A stretch of 37,766 bases of DNA. Origin: a virus. The notes beneath the pieces are model-generated. The model was not told the DNA's origin, did no database searches, and saw only the letters and a program-made list of their open reading frames with translations. Below, one piece after another: positions 23,468 through 37,532 of this stretch. The translations under genes were made by a program, and so were the position numbers. Numbering within the stretch: the stretch's first letter is position 1; each line of letters starts with the position of its first letter. The stretch lies in IMG/VR virus record IMGVR_UViG_3300009421_000002. One strand, given 5' to 3'.

Positions 23468-23613
23468 GATTGTTTGCCGTCTAACAATTCTTGCAAAATC
23501 ATGATTGCTTCATCAACTGCCTGCCGACTAACTTTGCAATAGGTGCCGTCCATGTCGGTTTGCTCTTGGTTTTTCAGGGCGTTTATCAAGTCTTGTGTGA
23601 CGTCAGGAATCAT
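23464..23613 (-). CDS. Hypothetical protein, 49 aa (shortened from the 70-aa ORF-track model)
   Basis: ATG 23613 preceded by GGAGattaaa. The upstream extension has no SD. Confidence 0.45.
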   Translation of the reverse strand: MIPDVTQDLINALKNQEQTDMDGTYCKVSRQAVDEAIMILQELLDGKQS

Positions 23614-23709
23614 TTTAATCTCCGGGTAAGTGCTAGCGATCACAACTAGCAACACGGTTTTCTGCACCCAACACATATTGGGTTTGTACCCTCCGCTCAG
23701 GCCGGAAAC

Positions 23710-24357
23710 TTATTGAAGCGGCGGCGTTGCGTCTTTAGCCGATGTTTTTTTGCCAAAGAATGGCACTACTTTTTTGTCGCTTGCTTTGGCGTCATCGTTC
23801 ACGCCATCCTCGTCAAACATATCTTTCTGCGCGGCTTCGACGGTGATGGTTGTTTCGCCACCACTCCAAATGCCGAGCAACTTTTGCGCGTCTTTCTTTT
23901 CAAACACTGACTGCACTCTAAACGTGATCACGCAATAGCCCGCGTCCTTTGGCTCGACTCTAAACTTGTTGACCTTCGCCGTAGAAAACTCTAACTGGCT
24001 TTCACGGCCCCACGGGAAAGTGACCAGCGCACCCTCAAGTTTTTTGGTCAACTCGATAGGCTTGGCAATCTCCCGATACCGCAGGCGGTCGAGTTTTTCC
24101 ATGCCCGCAAACTCTTTGACATCCTGATCCGCGTCGGGTTCCTGATCGGTGTACAGCATCGGGATCAACTCGGGATCGAATTTGCCAAGCAGCGCATTGC
24201 TGCCTTGAATCTCAATCGTAAGGTCACACGCGGGCTTTAATTCTTTTCCGTGCTTCTCGAAACGCAGATTACAATGCGTCACCTTGCAATTCTGTTGATC
24301 GTAGCCAAACGGTACGGGTTCGGCGGTCTTTTTCTTTGCGGGTTTCTTGCTGGCCAT
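23710..24357 (-). CDS. Hypothetical 215-aa protein with a basic N-terminal tail, two similar beta-rich halves and a mixed acidic/basic C-terminal tail
   Basis: Clean ORF directly downstream of the recombination genes. No family recognised. Confidence 0.55.
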   Translation of the reverse strand: MASKKPAKKKTAEPVPFGYDQQNCKVTHCNLRFEKHGKELKPACDLTIEIQGSNALLGKFDPELIPMLYTDQEPDADQDVKEFAGMEKLDRLRYREIAKPIELTKKLEGALVTFPWGRESQLEFSTAKVNKFRVEPKDAGYCVITFRVQSVFEKKDAQKLLGIWSGGETTITVEAAQKDMFDEDGVNDDAKASDKKVVPFFGKKTSAKDATPPLQ

Positions 24358-24363
24358 TTTGGG

Positions 24364-25467
24364 TTAGTCCTTTTGATGGGTTACGGTATCAATGATCGCT
24401 TGCGCGGCTGCTTTGATGGCATCGGCTGGCTTGCCGTCGATCACCATCACTGCCAGATCATAACCAGCCTCACCGACAGATGCTAACTTTTGCGCTCGTG
24501 CAAGTTCGGCCAGTCGTTTCTGTTCGGCCTTCATTCTGGCCTTCTCAGCCGCTGCTTCTGCTTTGGCCTGCTTGTCCCGTTCAGCTTGTGCTTCTGCTTC
24601 GTGCTTGGCAGCTTCGGCCCGATCAATTTCGGCTTGCCGTTCATCTTCCTGGCGCTGCTTCTCGGCTTCAATGGCTGCGCGTTCTTGCTCAAGTTTGGCG
24701 GCTTCGGCATCTTGCTTTGCTTGAACCTCGGCAGCAGCTTGCTCTGCGGCTTCCTTTTCGGCCTGGGCTTTGGCTTCCATCGCTTCAAACTTTGCCAGCA
24801 GCGCCTGTTTTTCTTCGGCATCTTTGGCGCGTTGGGCGTTCAGTGCTTCGCGTTCAAGCCTGACGGCTTCGGCGGCTTGCTCAGATTCGAGCGTACTGGC
24901 GTGCATTGTCTTTAGGCGATCAATAACAGAGTCCTGTACAGCTTTGGCCTTGTCTGCAAACTCATCGTAGCTATCACCCACGACCACGCCCGCGAGCTTG
25001 TCAATGGTTGACTGAATAGCATTAGAAGGTGCTCCGACCATTTGCTCTGCCAGTCCCCGCATAGACTCGATACGCCCTTCAATTTCTTTGACGCGCTCAA
25101 GTTCAGCGACGCGGGCGGCCTCACGTTCGCGGGCTTTGCGTTCTTCAACTGCTTTGATGTCAGCATCAACCGGCTTTTCAATGGCTTTGATAGCGTCGAT
25201 AAGTTTGGTGTAGTCCGCGTTGAGTGCATCAAGCGCTTGCTGGTGAGGGGCTTTCAGATCTTTGGAAGCTTTGCCTAGCGTTGTGCGCAGTGTCACGCAT
25301 TGCTTACGAAAAGCGCGAGCCTCTTTGTCGCCCTCGGTTGTATCGAGATCCCAATTAGCTGTCTTGACAATTTCGCGCAATGTAGACAGGCCCGCTTCGA
25401 TTGGGTTATAGCCTGCAATTTCGGTGATGCGTTCAACCTTTTCGACTTTGGTTTGTTCGACGCTCAT
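24364..25467 (-). CDS. DUF1351-like RecT-associated protein with a long charged A/E/K/Q coiled coil
   Basis: The N-terminal region (KEARAFRKQCVTLRTTLGKASKDLKAPHQQALDALNADY...) resembles DUF1351. Lies immediately downstream of recT. Confidence 0.45.
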   Translation of the reverse strand: MSVEQTKVEKVERITEIAGYNPIEAGLSTLREIVKTANWDLDTTEGDKEARAFRKQCVTLRTTLGKASKDLKAPHQQALDALNADYTKLIDAIKAIEKPVDADIKAVEERKAREREAARVAELERVKEIEGRIESMRGLAEQMVGAPSNAIQSTIDKLAGVVVGDSYDEFADKAKAVQDSVIDRLKTMHASTLESEQAAEAVRLEREALNAQRAKDAEEKQALLAKFEAMEAKAQAEKEAAEQAAAEVQAKQDAEAAKLEQERAAIEAEKQRQEDERQAEIDRAEAAKHEAEAQAERDKQAKAEAAAEKARMKAEQKRLAELARAQKLASVGEAGYDLAVMVIDGKPADAIKAAAQAIIDTVTHQKD

Positions 25468-25555
25468 TTGATCCTCTGTGGTTATAAGTTAATGGCCGGA
25501 TCGCACGGCCCTCTGGTTTCAGTCGTCGGAGTAGTCCTGCCAGATCAGGGGGTGG

Positions 25556-26428
25556 TCAATCTTCGCCGCGTTCCATAGCCCGCTCACGCTCGTTATACCG
25601 CGCTGTGAGCTTCGCCTGCTCGTCCGGATCAACGACTAGCCGAATCATTTCGCCCGCAACTTCCAGAACATCGAGCGCGTCCGAGTTGTTGATCTTTTTT
25701 AGTACTTGCGCGTAAGACATGGCGTTGCCGTCATCGTCGGCGGGGGTTTGCTGGTCTGCTTCGGATTGAATCTCGTCGGCTGGCGTCTCGTCGGTTAACT
25801 GCTTGCCGTTGATTTTCATGTTGAGCTGGTCAATCTCTTCGACGCCAGTAGCAGAGCCAGTCACCTCAGCGTCAATGATCCGCTCTGCTTCGTCTTGATC
25901 GTAGATGCCAACCAATGAATAAGCGACGCGCGCGCATTGAATCATGGCTTTGTGTCGCAACATGCGGCGCGGCATTTGCGTCCAGGGCTCAGTGCCGCGT
26001 TTGCATTCTTCGTAAAACTCTTTGACGACAGTGGGTCGCGTGCGATCTTTGCGGTAGATCGTGCATGTGATCCAGCGCGGCACCGGAACTTTTTCGGACA
26101 TATCCGGGCCGTATTCAAACTCAATGCCATCATGCTCGGGCTGACTGTTGATGATACGAGCCCAGCCGTCAACACCGACCATCGGCACAATGTCATTGCC
26201 CTTGCCAGGAAAGGCGTAAATCTCTTTGGTAAAGGGGTTAAGCCCGTACTGATCTGCAACGATCAACAGCGCTACCATCTGCTCATCTGATACTTCGCTG
26301 CCGCCCTTGCCTTTGAATACAGTGTTTTTGAGCGTATTGACCAGATTGCTCTGAGAGACTTTGAATCGCGTGGCCATCTGTGCCAGGGCGCTGGCGGGTT
26401 TGGTTGTAGTCGTGACTTCGTTACTCAT
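25556..26428 (-). CDS. recT: RecT-family single-strand annealing protein
   Basis: ALLIVADQYGLNPFTKEIYAFP...VGVDGWARI...TQMPRRMLRHKAMIQCARVAY is a classic RecT core. ATG 26428 preceded by GGAGAG. Confidence 0.85.
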   Translation of the reverse strand: MSNEVTTTTKPASALAQMATRFKVSQSNLVNTLKNTVFKGKGGSEVSDEQMVALLIVADQYGLNPFTKEIYAFPGKGNDIVPMVGVDGWARIINSQPEHDGIEFEYGPDMSEKVPVPRWITCTIYRKDRTRPTVVKEFYEECKRGTEPWTQMPRRMLRHKAMIQCARVAYSLVGIYDQDEAERIIDAEVTGSATGVEEIDQLNMKINGKQLTDETPADEIQSEADQQTPADDDGNAMSYAQVLKKINNSDALDVLEVAGEMIRLVVDPDEQAKLTARYNERERAMERGED

Positions 26429-26442
26429 TTGTGACTCTCCAA

Positions 26443-27315
26443 TTATTGAGCAATTTGCATGTAATAGCGCGGCATTTCCATTCGCTGAATTGTTTCGGGA
26501 TAGCTGGGCCAAAACCCTGATTCTTTGGCCAGGGCGTATTGCGCAAGCGCATCATTAGCTCGATACAATCCAATAGCCATCAACGGGGCAGGACATAAAA
26601 ACACTTGCACCCCATAAGGCGCCTGATACTCCGCTGCAATCCAAAGCCAATAGCGCAACGACTCATTGAATACGTGCTCGCTGCCACTGTTATAAAAGCC
26701 TGCCTGAACGTCATAGCGAAAGTTTTGGATGGTCCGCATGAAGCCACGTTGGCTGGCATCGTTAGTGGTTTTCAGATCGACCGCTATCAGGTCATCAGTC
26801 AGACGGTCAAAACGCATTTTGCAGTTCGTGCGCGTTTCGTTGTCCTGCCAAAATCCAGACAGCTCAGAGCGCCCTGGCATTTCAAGGTAGTGCATTGCGC
26901 CCTTATGATTTTGGATTGCCCTGGCGCAGCACTCTGCCCGGTGTATTTCGTCTGGCTTGAGCAAAACTTGTCCCGGCTCAAGCCCGCTAATGATGGCTTC
27001 CTTGCGCTCACGGTCGGCAGGTTTACGCAAGTTCAGGTCTGGCATTTCCACAACCGTGACATCGATCAGATCAGGCGTCAGCACCATGCAATGGACTGCT
27101 GTGCCAATATCCATTTCGGTTGATGCTTTGCGCGTCTGCTGTTCCTCTGCTTTCAAATGCAAGGGCGACTTATCAATGATGGTTTTGAGTTTGGATGAGC
27201 TAGCCGCATCAATGGCAAGGTAATCAGAAAAATCCATATCTTCAACAAGCCCGGATTTATACGAGTCAGCACCCATTACCTCGACGCCGTGATCAAGTTC
27301 TAATTCTTCGCTCAT
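26443..27315 (-). CDS. PD-(D/E)xK exonuclease (RecE C-terminal / DUF3799-like)
   Basis: GTAVHCMVL, CKMRFDRL, IAVDLKTTNDAS and FRYDVQAGFY match the exodeoxyribonuclease VIII-type PDDEXK pattern. ATG 27315 with SD GGTGA. Confidence 0.7.
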   Translation of the reverse strand: MSEELELDHGVEVMGADSYKSGLVEDMDFSDYLAIDAASSSKLKTIIDKSPLHLKAEEQQTRKASTEMDIGTAVHCMVLTPDLIDVTVVEMPDLNLRKPADRERKEAIISGLEPGQVLLKPDEIHRAECCARAIQNHKGAMHYLEMPGRSELSGFWQDNETRTNCKMRFDRLTDDLIAVDLKTTNDASQRGFMRTIQNFRYDVQAGFYNSGSEHVFNESLRYWLWIAAEYQAPYGVQVFLCPAPLMAIGLYRANDALAQYALAKESGFWPSYPETIQRMEMPRYYMQIAQ

Positions 27316-27467
27316 ATCATCACCACAATCGCAAGCGCCCAAACCAAGCAGAAGGCAACCGCACCCACCGCCAACTCAGCCAAAAACTTAGGCCAGCTAC
27401 GATCCTCGGAATCGTCAAACAGTGACCAGTCGGACAGGTGGCGCATGAAGTCGTCAAAGTTGTTCAT
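27312..27467 (-). CDS. 51-aa single-TM peptide (MNNFDDFMRHLSDWSLFDDSEDRSWPKFLAELAVGAVAFCLVWALAIVVMI)
   Basis: Hand-translated. ATGA-type overlaps at both ends. Below the ORF-track cutoff. Confidence 0.5.
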   Translation of the reverse strand: MNNFDDFMRHLSDWSLFDDSEDRSWPKFLAELAVGAVAFCLVWALAIVVMI

Positions 27468-27565
27468 GATGCAATCCCCCACAAAAGGCCAGCAGCAATC
27501 AAGGCAAGCACGATGCAGCGCAGATAGTCGGGCGCGGCGGTTAGTAAATAGATGGTCCAGTTCAT
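27464..27565 (-). CDS. 33-aa hydrophobic peptide (MNWTIYLLTAAPDYLRCIVLALIAAGLLWGIAS)
   Basis: Hand-translated. ATGA overlaps at both ends. Confidence 0.45.
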   Translation of the reverse strand: MNWTIYLLTAAPDYLRCIVLALIAAGLLWGIAS

Positions 27566-27705
27566 GACGTCACCAATGCAACGGCAAGAGCACCGGAAGT
27601 AGCCGCAACCATTTGAGCGGCAAAGTCATAGACAAAGAACGTGTCGTTAATTGCAGCGGCGACCGTGCCAATAACAAAAGCTGCAAACAGTTTTAGTAAG
27701 ATCAT
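27562..27705 (-). CDS. 47-aa hydrophobic peptide (MILLKLFAAFVIGTVAAAINDTFFVYDFAAQMVAATSGALAVALVTS)
   Basis: Hand-translated. ATGA overlaps at both ends. Confidence 0.5.
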   Translation of the reverse strand: MILLKLFAAFVIGTVAAAINDTFFVYDFAAQMVAATSGALAVALVTS

Positions 27706-27995
27706 GATTCCCCCCGAATCTCATCAGCAATAAACCCGATAACTTTCTCTTTCCCCACAACACCCAACATCGTCGCGTCATAAGACTCACCGCGAATGGC
27801 TTTGGAAATAACGCGCTGCACTTCGTTAAGGTCGAGCAGATTGGGTAGGCATTCAAGGATGTACGCGCACTGCTCTGTCTCGGTCATCTGTGACCAGCGC
27901 TCGGCGGCTTGATCTTCAATGGTGTTTAGTGGTTCGTGAACCAGACCGGGCAGCGATGTGTCTAGGCTGATTTGGGACTGTTGAAAGGTGTTCAT
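27702..27995 (-). CDS. Hypothetical 97-aa protein, first gene of the leftward early operon
   Basis: ATG 27995 preceded by GGAG (complement of 28001-28004). Confidence 0.6.
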   Translation of the reverse strand: MNTFQQSQISLDTSLPGLVHEPLNTIEDQAAERWSQMTETEQCAYILECLPNLLDLNEVQRVISKAIRGESYDATMLGVVGKEKVIGFIADEIRGES

Positions 27996-28025
27996 TGTGA
28001 CTCCGTTTGTGTTGACTGAGCCTTA

Positions 28026-28054
28026 ATCCTATTTCAACACTGAAACGATAGCAA
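28026..28054 (-). promoter_or_regulatory. Leftward early promoter candidate (-35 TTGCTA, 17-nt spacer, -10 TAGGAT)
   Basis: -35 is the complement of 28049-28054 and -10 the complement of 28026-28031. The spacer contains the palindrome TTTCA-acac-TGAAA. Confidence 0.5.
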
Positions 28055-28094
28055 GCTATTTCAGAAAAGAATTTGTCAAATCTGAAACGCTAGC
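28032..28094. promoter_or_regulatory. Operator set: CTGAAACGATAGC (28040-28052), CTGAAACGCTAGC (28082-28094), inverted partial copy GCTATTTCAG (28055-28064), palindrome TTTCAacacTGAAA (28032-28045)
   Basis: Two 13-mers differ at one base and lie 42 bp apart, each in a promoter spacer. The TTTCA/TGAAA half-sites recur. Confidence 0.6.
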
Positions 28095-28101
28095 CGATAA
28101 T
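28073..28101 (+). promoter_or_regulatory. Rightward early promoter (-35 TTGTCA, 17-nt spacer, -10 GATAAT)
   Basis: -35 at 28073-28078 and -10 at 28096-28101. The ATG at 28109 lies only 7 nt after the -10, which implies a leaderless or near-leaderless mRNA. Confidence 0.65.
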
Positions 28102-28108
28102 CGGTCGC

Positions 28109-28300
28109 ATGAAATTACGTGAACACTTACAAAGAACACGAGCCACGCTCATGGCGATGGACAAACAGCAGACCGGCAAGATCTGCGGCATCACTGGCAT
28201 GAGCGCCACCACGTTCTGGCGGATTCAGACGGGCAAGAAAATCCCTGATCTGTGGGAGTACGAAGATTTATTGAAGGCTATTGGGAGGGTTAGCAAATGA
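28109..28300 (+). CDS. Cro/CI-type HTH transcriptional regulator, 63 aa
   Basis: QTGKICGITGMSATTFWRIQTGKKIP is a typical HTH. Adjacent to the repeated operators. No SD, consistent with leaderless translation. Confidence 0.7.
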   Translation: MKLREHLQRTRATLMAMDKQQTGKICGITGMSATTFWRIQTGKKIPDLWEYEDLLKAIGRVSK

Positions 28301-28530
28301 AAGTAAGTCTTGCAAAAGCATTTATGTCATGGGCCAGCAAGGCGCTGAGAACAAATAACGGCGCTGTGAGCGAAAGCAAGCTGCCCTGGTATGTGGGCGT
28401 GGGCTCGGGCTACATTGCCCCTCTGCCGCCATATCGAAGCAAGTACAACCCTCATGTTGGTAAGAAGGAAGCCGCCAGGGCGCTCAGATTCAAAGACAAG
28501 CATGGGCACTGGCCTGGGAATACGTTTTAA
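28297..28530 (+). CDS. Hypothetical 77-aa protein
   Basis: ATGA overlap with the HTH gene. Confidence 0.5.
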   Translation: MKVSLAKAFMSWASKALRTNNGAVSESKLPWYVGVGSGYIAPLPPYRSKYNPHVGKKEAARALRFKDKHGHWPGNTF

Positions 28531-28574
28531 TCAGATAAGGGTCAGCCGGTAGTGCCCGTCAACAACCACCCAAC

Positions 28575-28600
28575 ACCGGCAGCCGGGGCAGCGGTTTTTT
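28575..28600 (+). terminator. Possible weak intrinsic terminator
   Basis: ACCGGC-agccggg-GCagCGGT followed by TTTTTT, 45 nt after the stop at 28530. Confidence 0.35.
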
Positions 28601-28864
28601 CATTCAATTTTTCCCGCTGTGACCCGGCACCTATCCCCAGCCTGACACCCACAACCACACGATAAAACCAACAACGAACCACCGGATCGTCCGAATAATT
28701 CTGTCTGTCAATTCCAGCAACGGCCAGAAGCGCCAACTGCGGCGGTACTTATCGAGCAGATTGATAATGGTCTCCCGCGAGTATCAATTCAAATGATTAT
28801 GTCTTGAGTGGTATGGCTGTGATACCTTTCACTCCGTTGACCTGTCAGTCGATGCAAACCTAAG

Positions 28865-28948
28865 CCCGTTTAAGCCTGGGGCGGTCCCGAAAGGGGGCAA
28901 CGCATAGCGCGTTGACTGACAGCCGCTTCAGCCTTAAACGGGTTTTTT
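28865..28948 (+). terminator. Long branched hairpin ending in U6: a structured RNA element and/or strong intrinsic terminator
   Basis: 28865-28884 pairs with 28923-28942 (20 positions, one C-C mismatch, two G-U). Two inner hairpins: CCC-GAAA-GGG at 28886-28895 and CAACGC-ataGC-GCGTTG at 28898-28914. TTTTTT at 28943-28948. Confidence 0.65.
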
Positions 28949-29242
28949 GCGTCTAAGCCAACCGTCAGTGCCACGAAGTTATGGGGTCCAAGAGTGCCCG
29001 CAGCACACAAAAGCTCAGCGGTAAGGGGTCGAAGTTAGATCGCCCGGTGCAAATCCGAAAGAATCCGCCGGCTGCCTGTACTCACAATGCCGAGGGGCGA
29101 ACGGTATCAATCCGTTGCTGAGTGAGACCCGAGCAATTCGGGGTTGGACATCTAAGGCTAAATGCTCTGTTGTGGGGTAGGGGGCCTTATGGAAGGAACG
29201 GACAGAAGCAGCAAAGCATTAGGGGCTTGTGGTGAGCAACAA

Positions 29243-29251
29243 TTATCCACA
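29243..29251 (+). promoter_or_regulatory. Perfect consensus DnaA box TTATCCACA, inside the inverted repeat GCTTGTGG-N14-CCACAAGC (29225-29254)
   Basis: Exact 9-mer match, 20 nt upstream of ATG 29272. It is a single copy, so a chance match cannot be excluded. Confidence 0.4.
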
Positions 29252-29271
29252 AGCAATACAGGGAAGATTCT

Positions 29272-29733
29272 ATGAAAGAAAAAATCCGGCAAATGATCGT
29301 GACAAAAGGGGCATTCAAAGGCCGATATTTTGTCGAATTGTCCACATACGCATTGATTGACATTGCTCAACAAGCGGCGGCGAAAGAGTCTCAAGCGGCA
29401 TTTAAGATTTTGCGCGACCGATACAAAGGGTCAGAAGCAAAAGCAACGCTTGCTCGCAAGAAAACGAATCGAGCAAATAGCGGCGAGTACAGCAACGCAC
29501 ATCAAGAGCAAATGATTGAATCGTGCAGCATCAGCGCGATGCGCGGCACTGAGGACGCCACAGGCTGGGCAACTATCGTTAGCCCTTACTTGCTGATTCC
29601 ATCGCTGGACAAACGGTGCTGCGACCTAAGCACAGACGAGAAGATGGAGTATTTAGCGCACACTTTTTACGGCCCGTCAGTCAAGGCGGCAATCGAAAAC
29701 CAAATGGGGTTTATCCATGCAACAGTCACTTGA
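29272..29733 (+). CDS. Hypothetical 153-aa protein
   Basis: ATG preceded by CAGGGAAG. First ORF after the long non-coding tract. Confidence 0.6.
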   Translation: MKEKIRQMIVTKGAFKGRYFVELSTYALIDIAQQAAAKESQAAFKILRDRYKGSEAKATLARKKTNRANSGEYSNAHQEQMIESCSISAMRGTEDATGWATIVSPYLLIPSLDKRCCDLSTDEKMEYLAHTFYGPSVKAAIENQMGFIHATVT

Positions 29734-30136
29734 AGCAGTAGAAACAGCCGAGCCCATGACCTTCGATCAATTTTGGTCGATCTATCCGAAAAAGGTCGCC
29801 AAAACCGAAGCGCGAGTAGTCTACGACAAGCTGAGCGAATACGACTTGATCGAGCTTGGCAAGATGGCTCCGGCTTTGATTCATTCCTGGCGATTCCGCG
29901 AGCGTCGCCACATCATGGCCCCCGACAAATTCTTGCGCCGCAAGCGATGGCATGACACACCCGACGCGGAACCGGGCACGACTGGCGGCCAGCGGCAGGC
30001 AAGTCACCAGATGATGATGATGGCCAGAGATGACGATAAGCCAATTGTCCCAACACCCGCAGAGCAAGCGCGGATCAATTTACAAAACGCTCGGGCGATG
30101 ATTCGCGGGGCGGTTAAAAGGATGCCAGGATCATGA
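29717..30136 (+). CDS. Conserved phage protein with N-terminal F-x-x-FW-x-x-YPKK-x-x-K and a later RRKRWHD motif
   Basis: FDQFWSIYPKKVAKTEARVVYDKL ... APDKFLRRKRWHD. I remember this pattern from small proteins in phage replication regions. Function unknown. Confidence 0.55.
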   Translation: MQQSLEAVETAEPMTFDQFWSIYPKKVAKTEARVVYDKLSEYDLIELGKMAPALIHSWRFRERRHIMAPDKFLRRKRWHDTPDAEPGTTGGQRQASHQMMMMARDDDKPIVPTPAEQARINLQNARAMIRGAVKRMPGS

Positions 30137-30477
30137 ACAACGACATCAACTCAATCGACCACATCGCCGGTTGCATGGCCACACAGATTGAGAACATTGC
30201 GATTGCGGTGGTTGGCTATCACGAGGCGCAGAAACATGGGCTGACGGCGTGGCAAACCACTGATCACGTGAGACACGTTCAAAGGCAGAAAGGCTATCTG
30301 GTCGATCTGATTAAGCGGTTGCCTCAGTTGCAAGCGCAGCCGGAAAAGTCAGAGCGGGCTTGCGACTTGCTTGTTCAGTTTCGTGACGAAGCGCTTGCGA
30401 TTAAAGATTCGGCAAGGATTCATCCGCAAAGGGTTGTAGAACGGTTAGACGTAATTCTTACGGCGCTAAATCGATGA
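30133..30477 (+). CDS. Hypothetical 114-aa protein
   Basis: ATGA overlap with the upstream gene. Confidence 0.55.
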   Translation: MNNDINSIDHIAGCMATQIENIAIAVVGYHEAQKHGLTAWQTTDHVRHVQRQKGYLVDLIKRLPQLQAQPEKSERACDLLVQFRDEALAIKDSARIHPQRVVERLDVILTALNR

Positions 30478-30662
30478 GCGATCGCCGAGATTGCCGCAGT
30501 TGCAAGTTTGGGTTTCCCCCAGAAGTTATGGACTTGAGTTGGAAAATTCCATTCAGACATTTCGCACCAATTGCCCGTTATTGCATTCAGTTGGATGGCT
30601 TGATAGATCCAATCAAAATCAGCGAGTGCCCGGTAGTCAATGAGCCTTTGGAGGTGGAGTGA
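30474..30662 (+). CDS. Hypothetical 62-aa Cys-containing protein
   Basis: ATGA overlap with the upstream gene. Confidence 0.5.
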   Translation: MSDRRDCRSCKFGFPPEVMDLSWKIPFRHFAPIARYCIQLDGLIDPIKISECPVVNEPLEVE

Positions 30663-31033
30663 TGAAGTTTAGGAAAAAGCCGGTAGTGATTGAGGCGACT
30701 CAGTGGAAAAAGAACGGCGATCATCCTGATGATTATGCAGATCCCGTGCAGGGCTTTGAGAATGGGGAGCTAGTCGAGTTTGATCCTGAACATTGCAAGC
30801 TAGCAGATTGGGAAGGTCAAGTTGTCCGGCGTTTTAACCATCCTCAAATAAGCGGGCTTGTTGATTGCCATATTTGCCAAACTCCGATGTGTGGTCACGG
30901 CTGGATTGATACGCTAGAAGGTGGTCACAATGTTTGCCCTGGCGACTGGATCATCACCGGCATCAAAGGCGAACGCTACCCGTGCGAGCCGGATATTTTT
31001 GAAGCGACTTATGAACCTTTGGGGATCGAATAA
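30662..31033 (+). CDS. Conserved phage protein (KKPVVIEATQW ... GDWIITG..GERYPCEPDIFEATYEP pattern)
   Basis: TGATG overlap; SD GAGG at 30651-30654. I recall this motif pattern as widespread in phage hypothetical proteins. Confidence 0.6.
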   Translation: MKFRKKPVVIEATQWKKNGDHPDDYADPVQGFENGELVEFDPEHCKLADWEGQVVRRFNHPQISGLVDCHICQTPMCGHGWIDTLEGGHNVCPGDWIITGIKGERYPCEPDIFEATYEPLGIE

Positions 31034-31557
31034 TGGAATCAGATGCAGGCGAAAAACACATGGACCGATTGATGGCGGCGCTCAGCGAGCCGTTGAATCT
31101 GCCGCTAACCGGACAAAGCAACAAAATCCAGTCAATGGACGACGAGCCTCTGACGCTTGAGCAAGTCGCGCAGGCGATGAAAGAAGTGCAGGCGGCTAAG
31201 GAGCAGGCTTGGAAGGATCGGCATCCGTTGGTCCAAATTCCATCGGAGCCTGTGACTAACAGCGAGCAAGGCGTGGAGTACTTTCCGGGCGATGTTTTGT
31301 TGCACTCGTATCCGTATCACCATCTATACGAGCCGCAAGTGAAAGAATCCGCAATAGCCGAAGAGAAAAAATACAAAGAGCAAGTTCAATGGCTTGAAAA
31401 TTATTGGATGGATGTTTACAAAAACTCAAAAAACACTTCGCCGCCCGATCTAATCCGCACGCCAGCAGCCCAAGCGGTCAGCGCTGCTATGAACATCGGC
31501 CAGGACGTTAAGTCGATGCCACGGATGGGGTGGGAGTTTGAGGGGAGGCTGCGGTGA
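31033..31557 (+). CDS. Hypothetical 174-aa protein
   Basis: TAATG overlap with the upstream gene. Confidence 0.55.
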   Translation: MESDAGEKHMDRLMAALSEPLNLPLTGQSNKIQSMDDEPLTLEQVAQAMKEVQAAKEQAWKDRHPLVQIPSEPVTNSEQGVEYFPGDVLLHSYPYHHLYEPQVKESAIAEEKKYKEQVQWLENYWMDVYKNSKNTSPPDLIRTPAAQAVSAAMNIGQDVKSMPRMGWEFEGRLR

Positions 31558-31775
31558 GTGATGACGACATCGACGCAAGGCAAATGGAATTAGTGGGCGA
31601 TATTCAAAAGCTCAGAGCAGAGTGTGAAGAAACTGTTGCCCCACTGGTAAAAGAGTACGTCAGATTGGAAGGTTTTCGAGTAAGAAGAGTTGTCGTTTTT
31701 GGCAGCGAAGTGGAATTTTTGAAGAATCCCCACGCCGCAGGGCGATCCGCGAATTTTACACAGGGGCAGAAATGA
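31554..31775 (+). CDS. Hypothetical 73-aa protein
   Basis: GTG start in a GTGA overlap; SD GGAGG at 31543-31547. Confidence 0.5.
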   Translation: MSDDDIDARQMELVGDIQKLRAECEETVAPLVKEYVRLEGFRVRRVVVFGSEVEFLKNPHAAGRSANFTQGQK

Positions 31776-32221
31776 GCCAGCCAGGATGGGAGGGCGAGAA
31801 GGTTTTGGAGCCGAAGTGCAGTGATTGCGTTCATAGCGGAGTCCAAACGCTAATTGGCGGGGTTGTCCGCATTATGCCGCCGCCATTGATGTGCGATTGG
31901 ATGAAGAATAGAAACTACGGGGAGCCATGGGATCGCCGCTATGCGTGGGAAATGAGAGATGCTGACAACGATTTTTGTGGGCCGGATGGCAAGTGGTTCG
32001 AGCCCAAAACCAAACCTGCCCTTGAATGCGTGTCTCTGCGCCTGGTGATCACTCAAACGGTTCGGGGCGATTACATGGTTAAGATGAGCAACGACGCAGC
32101 TGGTACGTCATCGAACACGGTCGAGCAGCGCTACACAAAAGCCATTGTGTCTGCCCTTGGATTTGCCGAGGAAGAATTGGCGCAGTGGACTCACATGATG
32201 CAGATCAAGGGGAAGCTATGA
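31772..32221 (+). CDS. Hypothetical 149-aa Cys-rich protein
   Basis: ATGA overlap with the upstream gene. Confidence 0.55.
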   Translation: MSQPGWEGEKVLEPKCSDCVHSGVQTLIGGVVRIMPPPLMCDWMKNRNYGEPWDRRYAWEMRDADNDFCGPDGKWFEPKTKPALECVSLRLVITQTVRGDYMVKMSNDAAGTSSNTVEQRYTKAIVSALGFAEEELAQWTHMMQIKGKL

Positions 32222-32703
32222 CGATCCTAATGATCGGCTGCGATCCTGGCATGACTGGCTACCTGGCGCTACTCGACAAAGACGCTCGACTGCTCGACAC
32301 CGCCAAGATGCCGCTAAAGCCCAAAGATCCCAAGCGCAAATCGAACCGGGTGGACCCGCACGGCCTGGGGATGATCGTGCAAAACTGGCGCAAGGCTTAC
32401 GCAGGCGCACCCTGCTACGCCTGCATCGAGGATTTGCAGTTCATGCAGGGCGACAAGATGGGCGCGTTCAGTCTGATGAACATGGGCAGCGCGGCAGGCA
32501 TTGCCGAGGGCGTGCTGACGATCATGTGTCGCGGCGTGATGATGGTTCCCCCGGCAAAGTGGAAGCGGGATCTTCGATTGAGCAAAGACAAGGCCGCATC
32601 GGTCGAGTTGGCGCACCGGCTGTTTAACAAAAATATGGGTCATGACCGTGCAGAGGCCGCGCTGATTGGGTATTACGGGCTCAGTCAGGGGATGGGACGG
32701 TAG
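32218..32703 (+). CDS. RuvC-like Holliday junction resolvase
   Basis: MIGCDPGMTGY, ACIEDLQF and HDRAEAALIGYY correspond to the RuvC catalytic acidic motifs. ATGA overlap at 32218. Confidence 0.8.
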   Translation: MTILMIGCDPGMTGYLALLDKDARLLDTAKMPLKPKDPKRKSNRVDPHGLGMIVQNWRKAYAGAPCYACIEDLQFMQGDKMGAFSLMNMGSAAGIAEGVLTIMCRGVMMVPPAKWKRDLRLSKDKAASVELAHRLFNKNMGHDRAEAALIGYYGLSQGMGR

Positions 32704-32995
32704 CCAATCTGGCACAATTGGCCCACGGCAACCACCGCAGGCCCATCCCCTGATCCGCAAGCCCCTAACACCGATTGACTGGTTTCGAGTCATCATCCAG
32801 CTAAACCGGGCTGGCAAATCGGTGTCGCTCATCGCCAGAGATACGGGCTTTCCAAACAGCACAGTGCGCTCATGGTGGGTCGGAATTGCCAACCCGCCAC
32901 ACGACAAAGGCGAAATCCTGCTGGCCTACTGGTCAGAGCACACGGGAAAATCGCAAGATCTTGCGCCACGGCTTCGCTATCCTGCGACTCGATAA
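32666..32995 (+). CDS. Ner/Nlp-like HTH DNA-binding protein
   Basis: IDWFRVIIQLNRAGKSVSLIARDTGFPNSTVRSWW...PPHDKGEILLAYW parallels the Ner pattern (DW..I...L...G.SL..LA...G........P.P.GE..IA). TTG 32666 with SD AGAGG 9 nt upstream is the only canonical start. Overlaps the resolvase gene by 38 nt. Confidence 0.6.
   Translation: MGITGSVRGWDGSQSGTIGPRQPPQAHPLIRKPLTPIDWFRVIIQLNRAGKSVSLIARDTGFPNSTVRSWWVGIANPPHDKGEILLAYWSEHTGKSQDLAPRLRYPATR
32950..32983 (+). promoter_or_regulatory. Late-promoter-like element C: ATCGCAAGATCTTG (full palindrome CGCAAGATCTTGCG), 14 nt, TATCCT
   Basis: Motif at 32950-32963 and hexamer at 32978-32983. It lies within the last 46 nt of the Ner-like gene, upstream of the portal operon. 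Confidence 0.55.
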
Positions 32996-33033
32996 CCTCA
33001 GATTCCCCGTTAACGAGACCAGGAGCCACCCAC

Positions 33034-33399
33034 ATGGCCAAACGCAACGCTGTACCAGGCGAAACCATTGACGCGACCAACGAAAACGCACCAGACGCCG
33101 CTGATGCGGTCGAGATGACTGCGGCTGTCGAGCACGATACCGCGTCAGAGGTCGAAGCCAATGACGACTTGAACACCGATCAGCTGGTGCAGATCCTATC
33201 CGAGCGCCTGGAAATGCAAGCCGACGAGATTGGCGAGCTTCGCGCAGAACTGCAACAGCTCAAGCTGGTGGTGATGAAGGTCAGCGCAGGCGTTCAGCGA
33301 GAACCAGAAGCGCCGCAGATGTCACGAGCAGAGGCCACCGAAAAGGCCAAGATGACCGGCAAAGCTCAACTATCCGTTGACGGCTACATCCAGCCCTAA
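33034..33399 (+). CDS. Acidic coiled-coil protein, 121 aa, first gene of the late operon
   Basis: ATG 33034 with SD AGGAG at 33021-33025. The ORF-track start at 32872 overlaps the Ner-like gene. Confidence 0.55.
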   Translation: MAKRNAVPGETIDATNENAPDAADAVEMTAAVEHDTASEVEANDDLNTDQLVQILSERLEMQADEIGELRAELQQLKLVVMKVSAGVQREPEAPQMSRAEATEKAKMTGKAQLSVDGYIQP

Positions 33400-33413
33400 A
33401 CCGGGAGCTAGTT

Positions 33414-33620
33414 ATGTGCGGTAAGAAGCCGAGCCTTCCTGAAGTCGAGAAAGTCGATGTTGAGGCGCAGCAGCGCGATGCCGAGGTCAAGGCCAGTCAG
33501 CGAGCGCAGCAAGAGAACAGCCAGCGCCAGCAACGTCGGCGGCGCTCGTCTTTGGATCGGGGCCGGGGCTCAGCGTTAAGCCTTTATGGTGGTGGTAGCA
33601 GTTCATTGGGCGGACGTTGA
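33414..33620 (+). CDS. Small basic Gln/Arg/Ser/Gly-rich protein, 68 aa
   Basis: SD GGGAG. Lies directly upstream of the portal gene with a TGATG overlap. Confidence 0.5.
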   Translation: MCGKKPSLPEVEKVDVEAQQRDAEVKASQRAQQENSQRQQRRRRSSLDRGRGSALSLYGGGSSSLGGR

Positions 33621-35245
33621 TGTATGACTCAAAATTAGCGGAGCGGATTTGCAAGCGCCAAGTGCGGCTTTCGGGTCTGCGCGGCCCGCACGAGAACCGC
33701 TGGCGCGATGGGTTCAACTACTCATTCACCGAGCGAGCCGATGCGTTTTACGGCTCAAGCAACATGGTCAACAACGACCAGCACAAAAAACCCAAGATCG
33801 TTGACTCGACTGGCCTTGATGCGTGCAAGACGCTATCGGCTGGCATCGTTGGGGCGATTGTCCCCAGCAATATGCAATGGTTTGATCTAACCTCGGGCGA
33901 TGATGACCAGATTGAGCACAACGATTGGTTGAGCGAATCGGGCCGGTTCATCTGGGAGAACATCCACGCGAGCAACTTTGACTCGACCGTGAACGACAAC
34001 TTCCATGATGCCGTGGTCGCTGGTTGGTTCGTGCTGTACTGCGAAGAAGCCGAGGGCGGTGGGTTTAACTTTGAGTGGTGGCCGATAGGCGAATGTTTTG
34101 TCAGCGCTTCAAAGTCTGGCGGCATGATCGATACGATTTACCGCGAGATGACCAAGAGCGTCGAGCAGTGCGTCAACGAATACGGCCTTGAGAATGTCAG
34201 CAAGCAAACCCGCGAGCTGTACATGAAGGGGCCGGATCAGTGGGACAAAACGGTCGAGCTGCTTTACTGCATTGAGCCCCGCCAGCAGAACAATCCAGAT
34301 TCACCCTTCGCCAAAGATTTGCCATTTGCCGCGTACCACGTTGAGAAGGCCAACAAGCACATCTGTCGCGAGTCTGGCTATCACGAGTTCCCTTGCGCAG
34401 TGCCCCGCGTTCGTATCATTCCCAAAAGCCACTACGCCATCGGCCCGTATGACGATGCACTAGCCAACGTCAAGACGCTGCAAAGCCTGGGCAAAGATGA
34501 GATTCAGGCGAGCGAGCTGGCGGTAGGCGGGATCTGGAAAGCCAAAGACGATGGCGTGTTGAATCCGTCCACGGTTCGCATTGGCCCGCGTCGCGTCGTG
34601 ATCGTTGCGGACATGGCGAATTTCGAGCGCATGGATACGTCCAACGGTCGGGGAGCGCAGCAAGGCTGGTCAACTAAGCAGGACTTGCAACAGCAGATCC
34701 GCAAGCAGATGCGCACTGATCAGCTTGAGCCGCAGGACAAGCCGCAAATGACCGCCTATGAGGTCAGCGTGCGCGTGGCAATGATTCGGACGCTGATCGG
34801 CCCGGAGTTCAATCGCTTTGAGAATGAATTCCTGGGCGTGATCGTTAAACGCTGCTTTGCTATTTCGATGCGGGCTGGCGTGCTGGGTGATCCACCCGAA
34901 GGATTGGAAGCCTACTCGGTTGATTACACCTCACCATTGGCCAGGGCTCAAAAGCAAGAGGATGCCGAGGCTACCAAGATGTTTGTCGGTTACGTCAATG
35001 AGCAGGCGCAAGTCACGGGCGATACCTCAGTGCTCGACATTATCAACAAAGACAAAGCGAATCGGCATGTGGCGGACGGCACCAACGTTCCGACCGACAT
35101 CCTCAACAGCCCAGATGAGATAGCCGAGATCCGCAAAACCCGAGAGCGCCAAGCGCAAGAGCAGGCCAAGCAAGAGGAACAGCAGCAGATGCAGGTAATG
35201 GCGGCTGAGGGTGCAGCGAAACGCGCAGGAGCAATGGCACTATGA
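33620..35245 (+). CDS. Portal (podovirus head-to-tail connector type)
   Basis: About 541 aa. IVDSTGLDACKTLSAGIVGAIVPSNMQWFDL fits the conserved connector N-terminal motif. Acidic Gln/Glu-rich C-terminus. Confidence 0.7.
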   Translation: MYDSKLAERICKRQVRLSGLRGPHENRWRDGFNYSFTERADAFYGSSNMVNNDQHKKPKIVDSTGLDACKTLSAGIVGAIVPSNMQWFDLTSGDDDQIEHNDWLSESGRFIWENIHASNFDSTVNDNFHDAVVAGWFVLYCEEAEGGGFNFEWWPIGECFVSASKSGGMIDTIYREMTKSVEQCVNEYGLENVSKQTRELYMKGPDQWDKTVELLYCIEPRQQNNPDSPFAKDLPFAAYHVEKANKHICRESGYHEFPCAVPRVRIIPKSHYAIGPYDDALANVKTLQSLGKDEIQASELAVGGIWKAKDDGVLNPSTVRIGPRRVVIVADMANFERMDTSNGRGAQQGWSTKQDLQQQIRKQMRTDQLEPQDKPQMTAYEVSVRVAMIRTLIGPEFNRFENEFLGVIVKRCFAISMRAGVLGDPPEGLEAYSVDYTSPLARAQKQEDAEATKMFVGYVNEQAQVTGDTSVLDIINKDKANRHVADGTNVPTDILNSPDEIAEIRKTRERQAQEQAKQEEQQQMQVMAAEGAAKRAGAMAL

Positions 35246-37382: not shown

Positions 37383-37532
37383 TTATGACCCCCACACACC
37401 GGCACCCGGATGTTCAACGGCCATGACCCATTCCCCGGTTATTTGCGCGTCAGGCTTTCTATTGTTAAAAGCAAATTGCAAAAAACTATGAAAAACACCA
37501 ACGGCTTGTCAGGGCGACAAGGTGATCGGCTA

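What the first reader, a model, noticed from the sequence alone, without database searches (positions are those of the whole stretch)
28531..29271. 740-nt non-coding tract in an otherwise gap-free genome
Elsewhere the intergenic gaps are 0-150 nt. This tract separates the two immediate-early rightward genes from the rest of the rightward operon. I see no convincing sigma70 promoter between 28949 and 29271. If so, expression of 29272-32995 needs read-through of at least two terminator-like elements (28575-28600 and 28865-28948) and a Rho-type tract. That implies antitermination control or a cis-acting RNA (put-like), although I recognise no N- or Q-like protein. The tract could instead hold an origin or a pac site.
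Basis: partly seen in the sequence, partly recalled or inferred. Interest (0 to 1): 0.65.

Follow-up and report, generated by a model that had tools for sequence, protein, structure and literature searches.

The report
Phage early-operon RNA control region
The long "empty" stretch between a marine phage's first two rightward genes and its replication genes is a packed control region: two conserved folded RNA elements (one built on the genome's strongest terminator), a small hidden leftward gene and a DnaA box. It probably decides whether transcription carries on into the replication genes.

Summary
The gap is real. 28531-29271 has no called gene and is the largest gap in the window, but it is not empty.

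- **Pseudoknot (28539-28584).** It carries the two invariant strings of the Rfam motif Proteo-phage-1. It falls below Rfam's threshold, but a family-only profile gives E 9e-7. The pseudoknot covaries in a related phage contig, L188.
- **First "terminator" (28575-28600).** This is not a terminator. Its T-run lies in the loop of a larger hairpin.
- **Leftward gene (28631-28765, minus strand).** A conserved 44-codon ORF with a conserved leftward promoter-like site. It partly explains the C-rich "Rho tract".
- **Long hairpin plus T6 (28862-28948).** This is the strongest terminator-like element in the window. An upstream arm (28842-28855) pairs with its junction strand (28909-22). The same design, with many different arm sequences, sits in front of Betaproteobacteria-1 RNAs in many phage contigs (19 of 35 loci; 0.5 expected by chance).
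- **Promoters.** No sigma-70-like rightward promoter follows the terminator, here or in L188. A perfect DnaA box is conserved just before the next gene.

Best reading: a regulated terminator gates entry into the replication genes. The mechanism is inferred, not shown.

The parts
28073..28101 (+). PR-like promoter (TTGTCA-17-GATAAT) that drives the cro-like gene (28109-28300) and the 77-aa gene (28297-28530). Context for the tract.
   Evidence: Best sigma-70-like site in 22000-37766, 10 of 12 matches. The 63-aa product has a weak HTH_31 hit.
28539..28584 (+). Proteo-phage-1-like pseudoknot. P2 stem is 28539-41:28555-57. Loop GCCGGU (28545-50) pairs with tail ACCGGC (28575-80), extended by GU 28552-53 with AC 28573-74. 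The Rfam alignment spans 28507-28584, but P1 is degenerate and overlaps the stop codon of the 77-aa gene.
   Evidence: Rfam RF03044: 23.1 bits, below the gathering score of 42. A family-only nhmmer profile gives E 9.1e-7, next best hit 0.42. The strings AGCCGGTAGTGCC and AACACCGGCAGCC match exactly and are shared with 86 IMG/VR contigs. In L188 the pseudoknot becomes GCC(A)UAG:CUAGGC, three pairs changed on both sides, and P2 becomes GGGG/CCCC.
28582..28628 (+). P3-like hairpin directly after the pseudoknot tail.
   Evidence: -24.2 kcal/mol, z -3.36. The small hairpin before the T-run gives only -5.5 kcal/mol, z +1.06. Family members also have a hairpin right after CACCGGCAGCC.
28604..28683 (+). 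C-rich, G-poor stretch (34 C, 9 G). It looks like a rut site, but it overlaps the antisense coding of the small leftward ORF.
   Evidence: Joint-highest C-minus-G excess of any 80-nt stretch on the + strand. ORF overlap shown.
28631..28765 (-). Small leftward ORF of 44 codons: INLLDKYRRSWRFWPLLELTDRIIRTIRWFVVGFIVWLWVSGWG. The C-terminus is hydrophobic. The start would be ATC (a GGGAG Shine-Dalgarno lies 6 nt upstream) or the internal TTG at 28720.
   Evidence: The L188 homologue (407-544 minus strand, 45 aa, ATG start) was called by its source's gene caller. 16 of the first 22 residues are identical, 9 codons differ synonymously, and the length is the same. The overlapping 64-aa ORF is broken by stops in L188. 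No relatives were found in the representative library.
28796..28823 (-). Leftward promoter-like site (ATCACA-16-CATAAT). The -10 lies in a 20-mer, TATCAATTCAAATGATTATG (28782-28801), that is identical in L188.
   Evidence: for the window. One search finds ATAACA-18-CATAAT at the homologous place in L188, the only promoter-like site in that contig.
28842..28855 (+). 5' arm of the ALT helix (CUGUCAGUCGAUGC). It pairs with 28909-28922.
   Evidence: Inverted repeat I8. Four pairs are changed on both sides in L188 and two in the X3/X4 metagenome variant. The same positional complementarity holds in 19 of 35 related phage loci, against 0.5 expected.
28862..28948 (+). Long three-way-junction hairpin followed by T6, an intrinsic-terminator design. 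Main stem: 28862-28884 with 28923-28945. Hairpin 1: 28886-28895. Hairpin 2: 28898-28914. Junction and ALT 3' arm: 28909-28922. T-run: 28943-28948.
   Evidence: -47.5 kcal/mol, z -5.7; -57.6 kcal/mol, z -5.84 with flanks. Strongest such element in the window. It is the only part of the tract shared with seawater metagenome contigs X2-X4. Three main-stem pairs are changed on both sides in L188, and 98% of cells are paired. The same architecture is seen in L213 and L196.
28951..29242 (+). Spacer with no detectable special fold. In L188 the homologous position holds a true Betaproteobacteria-1 RNA. Here only short blocks such as GTCGAAGTTAG remain.
   Evidence: z +0.45. No Rfam hit at E up to 10. 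No hit with an extended family profile. L188 744-861 scores 80.7 bits for RF02932.
29243..29251 (+). Perfect DnaA box (TTATCCACA), about 20 nt before the ribosome-binding site and ATG of the 29272 gene. It lies inside a window-specific palindrome, GCTTGTGG-N14-CCACAAGC (29225-29254).
   Evidence: It is the only exact match in the window. A one-mismatch box lies at 29338-46. The same box sits at L188 961-969, before a different first gene. The palindrome folds at -13.4 kcal/mol, z -3.44, but is not conserved in L188.

Best explanation
The tract is the transcription-control spacer of the rightward early operon. Transcripts from the PR-like promoter pass the cro-like and 77-aa genes and then make a Proteo-phage-1-type pseudoknot plus hairpin. 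Next they meet a conserved long-hairpin intrinsic terminator at 28862-28948.

A segment just upstream of that hairpin (28842-28855) pairs with the hairpin's junction strand (28909-28922). This helix forms first in the nascent RNA. The linker to the base of the 23-bp stem is only about 6 nt, so the helix probably cannot coexist with the completed stem. It therefore acts as a built-in antiterminator. The balance between the two folds would set how many polymerases read on into the 29272-32995 replication module, which has no recognisable promoter of its own.

A convergent leftward unit lies between the two RNA elements: a promoter-like site at 28796-28823 and a 44-codon membrane-peptide ORF. A DnaA box lies at the entrance of the downstream genes.

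Shown: the elements exist, they are conserved, they covary, and no consensus promoter is present. Inferred: that the hairpin terminates, that the ALT helix prevents termination, what tips the balance, and what the pseudoknot does. The pseudoknot may load a factor onto the polymerase or modify it, but that is untested.
For: Gap and promoters.

Terminator strength and uniqueness. It is the conserved island in other seawater metagenomes. Three main-stem pairs are changed on both sides in L188.

ALT helix:
- It is the minimum-energy fold of the nascent RNA up to 28922-28935 (-39 to -42 kcal/mol). The terminator fold wins only once 28942 has been made (-48.6 against -42.5 kcal/mol).
- L188 behaves the same way.
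- Four pairs are changed on both sides in L188 and two in X3/X4.
- The same position-defined pairing occurs in 19 of 35 distinct phage loci with at least 12 different arm sequences, against 0.5 expected from shuffled flanks.

Pseudoknot: with covariation. In clade B of the family, as in the window, the RNA starts a few nucleotides after the stop codon of an upstream gene inside an early operon. In clade A it lies between terminators at the head of the late genes.
Against: There are no transcript data for this phage. The public runs that hold it are DNA contigs.

The 3' arm of the ALT helix shares almost no nucleotides with the terminator stem, so mutual exclusion rests on a geometric argument. 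The helix could instead be a tertiary contact in a stable RNA.

The final terminator fold is about 6 kcal/mol more stable than the ALT fold.

In many phages the same hairpin domain is followed by a structured RNA (Betaproteobacteria-1) and then by unrelated genes. That fits an RNA gene as well as it fits a gate.

Promoter scans cover only sigma-70 consensus, and their hit counts are at chance level. A conserved DnaA box right before the next gene could mark an unrecognised regulated promoter.

Clade B of Proteo-phage-1 has no terminator within 400 nt.
Confidence: 0.5

Rival explanations
1. The folded elements are stable non-coding RNAs (RNA genes or processed leaders) that act in trans or as structural RNAs. 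On this view the long hairpin plus U-run is the 5' domain, or the 3' end, of such an RNA, and the loop-junction helix is a tertiary pseudoknot. The downstream genes would then be expressed from an unrecognised promoter near the DnaA box, for example one that depends on an activator or on DnaA.
For: Rfam files both related families as sRNA genes. Clade A Proteo-phage-1 RNAs are discrete units of about 215 nt, flanked by terminators or tRNAs. The hairpin domain precedes Betaproteobacteria-1 RNAs in front of many unrelated genes. In many loci the 5' arm lies in the loop of a small GUUG..CAAC hairpin, as expected for a loop-junction tertiary contact. The DnaA box plus ribosome-binding-site block is conserved in L188 although the first gene differs.
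Against: No promoter-like site lies before either RNA element or before 29272, in the window or in L188. In the window, and in clade B of the family, the RNA begins right after an upstream stop codon. The window has lost the Betaproteobacteria-1 core but kept the hairpin domain. That argues the hairpin has a role of its own.
Confidence: 0.25
2. Processive antitermination of the put or nut type. The Proteo-phage-1-like pseudoknot binds the transcribing polymerase, alone like HK022 put or with an unidentified factor like lambda N at nut. The modified polymerase then ignores the Rho-type tract and the strong terminator.
For: The element lies right after the first early genes and before the terminator. 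The core sequence is nearly invariant across distant phages, as expected for contact with a conserved host machine. The pseudoknot covaries. Family members lie inside operons, co-directional with the genes, and in clade A a terminator follows them.
Against: There is no sequence or structure similarity to the HK022 put region. No N-like arginine-rich protein is evident: the first leftward product is acidic and the flanking proteins are orphans. In clade A a terminator lies upstream of the RNA as well, and clade B has no terminator nearby. L188 has lost the 'invariant' strings. The terminator has its own antiterminator-like partner, which processive antitermination would make unnecessary.
Confidence: 0.12
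3. The tract holds the phage replication origin. DnaA boxes and repeated CTGTCAGTCAA-like sites would bind DnaA and the phage initiator next to the replication genes.
For: A perfect DnaA box at 29243-29251 is conserved in L188, and a one-mismatch box lies 95 nt downstream. Five 14-nt sites related to CTGTCAGTCAAnGC cluster in 28698-29690 and occur nowhere else in the window. The tract abuts a gene similar to replication initiators. No helicase, primase or polymerase matches were seen in the proteins scanned, so host machinery is probably needed.
Against: There is no regular iteron array and no conserved AT-rich unwinding element. Of the five sites, two form the covarying RNA helix, which changes to a different sequence in L188. 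One lies in conserved coding sequence of the small ORF. Two lie in a gene that L188 lacks. The GC-skew minimum coincides with the switch in gene direction, so it says nothing either way.
Confidence: 0.1

Closest known systems
Proteo-phage-1 RNA motif (Rfam RF03044; Weinberg et al. 2017, PMC5737381)
   Same: The P2-loop string AGCCGGUAGUGCC and the tail string AACACCGGCAGCC match exactly. The P2 stem, the loop-tail pseudoknot and a hairpin right after the tail are all present. The element is co-directional with phage genes and lies at a boundary between gene modules.
   Different: The score is below Rfam's gathering threshold (23.1 against 42 bits). P1 is degenerate. The clade A downstream domains P4 and P5 are absent. 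The host setting is a marine phage of about 51% GC, whereas clear genome-borne members are nearly all Pseudomonas or Stutzerimonas. The relative L188 keeps the fold but not the 'invariant' letters. The family's function is unknown.
Betaproteobacteria-1 RNA (Rfam RF02932) together with the long hairpin domain that precedes it in phages
   Same: The window's 28836-28948 has the same design as the domain found about 95 nt before the RF02932 core in at least 35 distinct IMG/VR loci and in L188. That design is a small upstream arm, a long stem, an apical GNRA-type hairpin, a junction strand complementary to the arm, and a U-run followed by GCGTCTA..CAACCG.
   Different: The window lacks a recognisable RF02932 core downstream. 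The Rfam model does not include the hairpin domain. About half of the loci show no T5+ run before the RNA.
Lambda nutR - tR1 (N-dependent antitermination)
   Same: The order is the same: promoter, cro-like gene, RNA element, C-rich tract, terminator, replication genes. No promoter lies before the replication genes.
   Different: No boxA or boxB sequences were recognised on reading the tract, and no N-like protein was found. The terminator is intrinsic and very strong, and it has its own partner helix.
HK022 put RNA (factor-independent processive antitermination)
   Same: A compact, folded, cis-encoded RNA lies downstream of an early promoter and upstream of terminators.
   Different: There is no detectable similarity. 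The window element is a single hairpin with a pseudoknot, about 400 nt from the promoter. No functional data exist.
Classical terminator/antiterminator attenuators and riboswitch expression platforms
   Same: An upstream segment forms a helix in the nascent RNA before the terminator is complete. The two folds appear mutually exclusive, and both are kept by compensatory changes.
   Different: The antiterminator arm does not sequester terminator-stem nucleotides, so exclusion would be topological. No leader peptide, aptamer or known binding protein was identified.
P4 CI RNA / P1 c4 RNA immunity (leader-derived RNA that pairs with repeated boxes to cause termination)
   Same: A stable hairpin RNA ending at a terminator carries a box (GACUGACAG) that is complementary to several nearby boxes on the same transcript.
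   Different: There is no Rfam C4 hit. The extra boxes are not conserved as a set in L188.

Membership tests
Proteo-phage-1 RNA (RF03044) | Score at or above Rfam's gathering threshold (42 bits) | tested here: not met
   23.1 bits, E 0.12, at 28507-28584. Chance hits of similar score occur in unrelated phage DNA.
Proteo-phage-1 RNA (RF03044) | Invariant P2-loop and 3'-tail sequences (AGCCGG..AGUGCC and AAAACACCGGCAGCC) | tested here: met
   The loop matches exactly and the tail matches 13 of 15. A profile built from 42 family members without the window hits 28534-28596 at E 9.1e-7.
Proteo-phage-1 RNA (RF03044) | P1 hairpin 5' of P2 | tested here: not met
   The Rfam alignment shows several non-canonical pairs and deletions in P1. 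The region overlaps the 3' end and stop codon of the 77-aa gene.
Proteo-phage-1 RNA (RF03044) | P2 hairpin whose loop pairs with the 3' tail (pseudoknot) | tested here: met
   GCCGGU (28545-50) pairs with ACCGGC (28575-80). In L188 the pairing becomes GCC(A)UAG with CUAGGC, three pairs changed on both sides. The pseudoknot is invariant within the Pseudomonas-type family.
Betaproteobacteria-1 RNA (RF02932) | Three-hairpin core with GGGUGGCGAAG.UAGCGCC | tested here: not met
   No hit in 28940-29280 at E up to 10, nor with an extended nhmmer profile. L188 744-861 meets it at 80.7 bits.
Hairpin domain preceding Betaproteobacteria-1 in phages (not in Rfam) | Long stem plus U-run, with the junction strand complementary to a segment just upstream of the stem | tested here: met
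   Window 28842-55 pairs with 28909-22, and the stem is 28862-28945. The same design occurs in L188, L213 and L196, and in 19 of 35 loci by a positional rule.
HK022 put RNA | Sequence or structure similarity to putL/putR | tested here: not met
   The HK022 immunity region gives no Proteo-phage-1 hit at E up to 10. No put model exists in Rfam for a direct test.
HK022 put RNA | Acts in cis on RNA polymerase without protein factors | not testable with these tools
   This needs in vitro transcription.
Lambda N/nut antitermination | boxA plus boxB RNA and an arginine-rich N-like protein | tested here: inconclusive
   The 97-aa first leftward product is acidic. The 63-aa product is an HTH, cro-like protein. 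Reading the tract by eye, I recognised no boxA or boxB motif, but no dedicated motif search was run.
Intrinsic (Rho-independent) terminator | GC-rich hairpin directly followed by a U-run on the transcribed strand | tested here: met
   The stem runs to 28942 and T6 lies at 28943-28948. Fold energy is -47.5 kcal/mol, the strongest in the window. Actual termination was not tested.
Replication origin | Iteron array, AT-rich unwinding element and DnaA boxes | tested here: inconclusive
   One perfect, conserved DnaA box and one near-box are present. No regular iterons were found. The clustered 14-nt sites are explained otherwise or are not conserved.

The most novel reading that the evidence does not exclude
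Two orphan phage RNA motifs may be cis-acting modules that control terminator read-through inside phage operons without a dedicated protein. One is the Proteo-phage-1 pseudoknot. The other is the hairpin domain that precedes Betaproteobacteria-1 RNAs. The pseudoknot would act on the transcribing polymerase, as put does. The hairpin domain would be a new kind of terminator that is switched off by a loop-junction helix through a topological clash rather than by strand competition.
Probability: 0.18. Interest if true: 0.8.

Novelty: new variant of a known kind. Interest (0 to 1): 0.55.

Why it matters
Proteo-phage-1 and Betaproteobacteria-1 have been in Rfam since 2017 with no assigned function. 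This window and its relatives place both at a defined regulatory position: inside phage operons, right after stop codons or terminators, and before the next gene module. The Rfam models also cover only part of larger conserved RNAs.

The terminator-like hairpin has a covarying upstream partner helix in many unrelated phages. That is a concrete, mutable design. It could be tested in vitro with a handful of compensatory mutants.

If it gates transcription, it would add a widespread RNA-only checkpoint to the known phage antitermination systems (N/nut, Q/qut, put).

The case also shows that 'empty' phage spacers can hide small conserved genes with non-canonical starts.

Tried and rejected
- **Phage DNA search.** blastn of 28000-29800 against 50,697 phage records found no match.
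- **Rfam and tRNA scans.** Rfam at gathering thresholds on the whole window and a tRNA scan both found nothing.
- **Flanking proteins as handles.** The 153-aa and 77-aa products are orphans among 5.8 billion proteins and in IMG/VR. Only the 139-aa replication-like protein gave two short related contigs.
- **Exact-pattern searches for the terminator hairpin.** Nothing in IMG/VR, GTDB genomes or JGI metagenomes.
- **Genome-wide scan with the Proteo-phage-1 pattern.** Most hits were chance or coding matches in high-GC actinomycetes. Only Pseudomonas, Stutzerimonas and a few other proteobacterial records look real.
- **RNA evidence for the family.** 'RNA' runs kept as contigs gave no usable transcript ends. 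Two raw RNA-seq runs of the same species label had no reads on the locus.
- **Literature.** No text was found for Proteo-phage-1, or for Betaproteobacteria-1 as an RNA, beyond the discovery paper. That paper's supplement is not held.
- **64-aa minus-strand ORF (28542-28736).** Rejected as a gene because stops break it in L188.
- **28951-29271 as a structured RNA.** Rejected: z +0.45 and no family hit.
- **Palindrome at 29225-29254 as an operator.** Not conserved in L188.
- **Generic longest-complement test for the ALT helix.** It was uninformative. A position-defined test was decisive.
- **attP idea.** No integrase was found among the proteins scanned.
- **Small-ORF relatives.** Only one weak hit, to a 608-aa protein with 10 matched stretches.
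Full report
**Setting**

The window is a phage contig of about 37.7 kb from a marine metagenome (ENA ERZ511480).
- Structural genes, including a T7-type portal, a tail protein and the large terminase, run rightward.
- A leftward early block carries RecT and an exonuclease.
- A rightward early block starts at a PR-like promoter, 28073-28101, the best sigma-70-like site in the region. It then encodes an HTH cro-like 63-aa product and a 77-aa product.
- After the tract come a 153-aa orphan gene, a 139-aa product similar to the C-terminal part of replication initiators, and further small genes up to a Holliday-junction resolvase.
- Both genes that flank the tract are orphans among 5.8 billion proteins.

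Yes, with corrections.
- The source's gene caller left 28531-29271 empty, and no tract ORF matches Pfam or PHROGs.
- In a crude coding-potential map this is the largest gap in the window, although gaps of 141-399 nt exist elsewhere.
- The 28865-28948 hairpin plus T6 is the most stable hairpin-before-T-run in the window on either strand. It folds at -47.5 to -57.6 kcal/mol, z about -5.8.
- The 28575-28600 'terminator' is not credible: -5.5 kcal/mol, z +1.06. Its T-run sits in the loop of a -24.2 kcal/mol hairpin at 28582-28628.
- The 80-nt stretch at 28604-28683 has the joint-highest C excess on the + strand.
- No + strand promoter-like site scoring at least 9 of 12 lies between 28101 and 31699. 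These scans find sites at chance frequency, so the absence is weak evidence on its own.

**Element 1: a Proteo-phage-1-type pseudoknot**

A permissive Rfam scan gave one hit, Proteo-phage-1 (RF03044), at 28507-28584. It scored 23.1 bits against a gathering threshold of 42. Unrelated phage DNA gives chance hits of that size, so the score alone proves nothing.

Other evidence is stronger.
- The window carries the family's two near-invariant strings exactly.
- A pattern built on those strings finds 86 IMG/VR contigs. All eight that I tested reach Rfam's threshold, at 48.9-94 bits.
- An nhmmer profile built from 42 non-redundant members, without the window, hits 28534-28596 at E 9.1e-7. The next best hit in the window is E 0.42.

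In the window the P2 stem is GGG/CCC, and the loop GCCGGU pairs with the tail ACCGGC. P1 is degenerate and overlaps the upstream stop codon.

**What the family looks like**

The Rfam model covers only the 5' part of larger RNAs.
- Clade A has 23 sequences from lambdoid-like Pseudomonas phages. It folds into about 215 nt (P1 to P5), with 17 of 45 pairs showing compensatory changes.
- Clade A RNAs lie between a gene in the Q position (phrog_3373 or phrog_3412, function unknown) and the lysis and packaging genes. A terminator lies about 60 nt upstream, and a terminator or tRNAs follow directly.
- Clade B comes from P. aeruginosa-type prophages and phage PS-1. It lies inside an early operon ahead of recombination genes.
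- Clade B RNAs start a few nucleotides after the stop codon of the upstream gene, with no terminator within 400 nt. The window follows this intercistronic arrangement.

A scan of 185,579 genomes shows clear members mostly in Pseudomonas and Stutzerimonas, with a few in other proteobacterial records. The other hits are chance or coding matches in high-GC actinomycetes.

**A homologous tract: L188**

The 139-aa protein has a 79%-identical relative on a 1,436-nt Logan contig, L188. That contig carries three features:
- the end of a homologue of the 77-aa gene;
- a 702-nt tract;
- the replication gene, directly after the tract.

The 153-aa gene is absent, so it is an insertion or deletion between the two phages. 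Aligning the tracts gives the comparative evidence that the window alone could not.

- **Pseudoknot.** The loop-tail pairing changes from GCCGGU:ACCGGC to GCC(A)UAG:CUAGGC. Three pairs change on both sides, P2 becomes GGGG/CCCC, and the linker CGUC.ACAACCACCCAA is conserved. The fold is therefore selected even where the 'invariant' letters are lost.
- **Terminator main stem.** Three pairs change on both sides and 98% of cells stay paired.
- **ALT helix.** See Element 2.
- **Conserved 20-mer.** TATCAATTCAAATGATTATG (28782-28801) is identical in both.
- **DnaA box.** A perfect TTATCCACA lies about 20-25 nt before the ribosome-binding site of the first gene after the tract in both phages, although that gene differs.

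**Element 2: a terminator with a partner helix**

The segment 28842-28855 is complementary to 28909-28922, the junction strand of the three-way hairpin and part of its second inner hairpin.

- **Folding order.** The nascent RNA up to 28922-28935 folds into this ALT helix as its minimum-energy structure, at -39 to -42 kcal/mol. The terminator fold wins only when the 3' strand is complete (-48.6 against -42.5 kcal/mol). L188 behaves the same way.
- **Covariation in L188.** The arms become UUGGAAGC:GCUUCCAA, with four pairs changed on both sides. 89% of cells are paired, against 26-41% in slid controls.
- **Covariation in metagenomes.** In seawater metagenomes X2-X4, this hairpin region (28844/28850 to 28947/28952) is the only part of the tract that is shared. 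The X3/X4 variant carries two further double-compensated ALT pairs and a compensated extension of inner hairpin 2.

**The wider family**

L188 744-861 is a true Betaproteobacteria-1 RNA (RF02932, 80.7 bits). An extended profile matches L188 751-952. The core of that family occurs in 110 IMG/VR contigs.

In 35 distinct loci a long hairpin (about -45 kcal/mol) plus a T5+ run sits directly in front of the RNA. It has the same architecture as the window's element.

I tested the ALT pairing with a rule fixed in advance: does the junction strand immediately 5' of the main stem's 3' strand find a perfect 7-nt complement in the 21 nt just upstream of the hairpin?
- 19 of 35 loci pass, against 0.5 expected from shuffled flanks.
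- At least 12 different arm sequences are involved.
- Several failures come from the way the minimum-energy fold was parsed.

This is strong covariation for the ALT pairing.

The window has this hairpin domain but no recognisable RF02932 core after it. 28951-29271 also shows no unusual fold.

**How it may work**

The 3' ALT arm lies next to the terminator stem but hardly overlaps it, so the two do not compete for the same strand. My inference is topological. The 5' arm is tied to the base of a stem of about 23 bp by only 6-11 nt. While it is held at the top of that stem, the base of the stem next to the U-run cannot close.

I cannot exclude the alternative, that the helix is a tertiary contact in a compact, stable RNA. 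What would tip the balance is unknown. It could be polymerase speed, a factor, or the upstream pseudoknot.

**A hidden leftward unit**

L188's gene caller found a 45-aa minus-strand ORF.
- The window has the homologue at 28631-28765. 16 of the first 22 residues are identical, 9 codons differ synonymously, the tail is hydrophobic, and the length is the same.
- ATG is replaced by ATC, with a GGGAG 6 nt upstream.
- The independent scanner finds a leftward promoter-like site at homologous positions in both phages. Its -10 lies in the conserved 20-mer.
- This unit converges on PR transcription. It also explains part of the C-rich composition of the + strand.
- The other minus-strand ORF (64 aa) is broken in L188.

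**Origin and other ideas**

The DnaA box is the only origin-like feature that is conserved.

Five sites related to CTGTCAGTCAAnGC cluster in 28698-29690 and occur nowhere else in the window. Their explanations differ:
- two of them form the ALT helix, which changes sequence in L188;
- one is coding sequence of the small ORF;
- two lie in the gene that L188 lacks.

There is no iteron array, no integrase among the proteins scanned, and no evidence for a pac site.

**Verdict**

The tract is a compound control region. The best-supported statement is that a conserved, probably regulated, intrinsic terminator separates the two first rightward genes from the replication module. A conserved pseudoknot of the Proteo-phage-1 kind lies ahead of it, in the nut/put position.

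Termination, antitermination and any role of the pseudoknot are inferred, not shown. The main rival is that these are RNA genes or domains with another role, and that the downstream genes have an unrecognised promoter near the DnaA box.

Noticed in passing
window 29272-29733: The 153-aa orphan gene is missing from the homologous locus L188. There the replication gene follows the tract directly, so the gene is an insertion or deletion between close relatives. It contains two of the CTGTCAGTCAA-like sites and a near-consensus DnaA box (29338-46).
   Followed up: partly
window 28698-28717, 28839-28858, 28906-28925, 29347-29366, 29671-29690: Five 14-20-nt sites related to CTGTCAGTCAAnGC, in both orientations, cluster within 1 kb and occur nowhere else in the window. 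Two of them form the covarying RNA helix. Why the other three resemble them is unexplained.
   Followed up: partly
window 30676-30688: A 12-nt exact copy of the pseudoknot loop sequence (AGCCGGTAGTG plus one flanking base) lies inside the 30659-31033 gene. By profile score it may be chance (E 2.2).
   Followed up: no
window 32704-33033: This is a second stretch, about 330 nt, left uncalled by the source's gene caller. It lies just before the genes that lead into the portal gene. It includes a C-rich stretch at 32722-32801 (34 C, 15 G) and could be the late-operon control region.
   Followed up: no
L006, L014, L026, L063 and other clade A loci (e.g. L006 1174-1474): The Rfam Proteo-phage-1 model (82 nt) covers only the 5' third of a covarying RNA of about 215 nt. 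That RNA is flanked by a terminator about 60 nt upstream and by a terminator or tRNA genes downstream.
   Followed up: yes
L089 3738-4268 (Pseudomonas phage phiAH14a gp55): The annotated minus-strand 'hypothetical protein' overlaps the Proteo-phage-1 RNA between the Q-position gene and the lysis genes. It is probably a spurious call.
   Followed up: no
L190-L299 (IMG/VR loci with the RF02932 core): Betaproteobacteria-1 RNAs are common in phage contigs and extend about 100 nt beyond the Rfam model (conserved GGCTCCG...GTGAAGGC...GGCTAGGTC.G.CCACC). The genes downstream are heterogeneous, including NinB-like and methyltransferase-like products.
   Followed up: partly
L008 3577-3885 versus runs X7 and X13: The clade B Proteo-phage-1 module of about 310 nt behaves as a mosaic unit. 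Contigs from other strains share it exactly, but their flanks differ on both sides.
   Followed up: no
window 28794-28808 and L188 572-781: A conserved ATGATTATG opens a 4-codon mini-ORF in the window (MIMS, then stop) and a 69-codon ORF in L188. It has no Shine-Dalgarno sequence and is probably not a leader peptide. Its conservation is more likely due to the overlapping leftward -10 element.
   Followed up: partly
window 28034-28052 and 28076-28094: Two 19-nt direct repeats (TCAA..CTGAAACG.TAGC) flank or overlap the PR-like promoter. They are likely operators of the immunity region.
   Followed up: no
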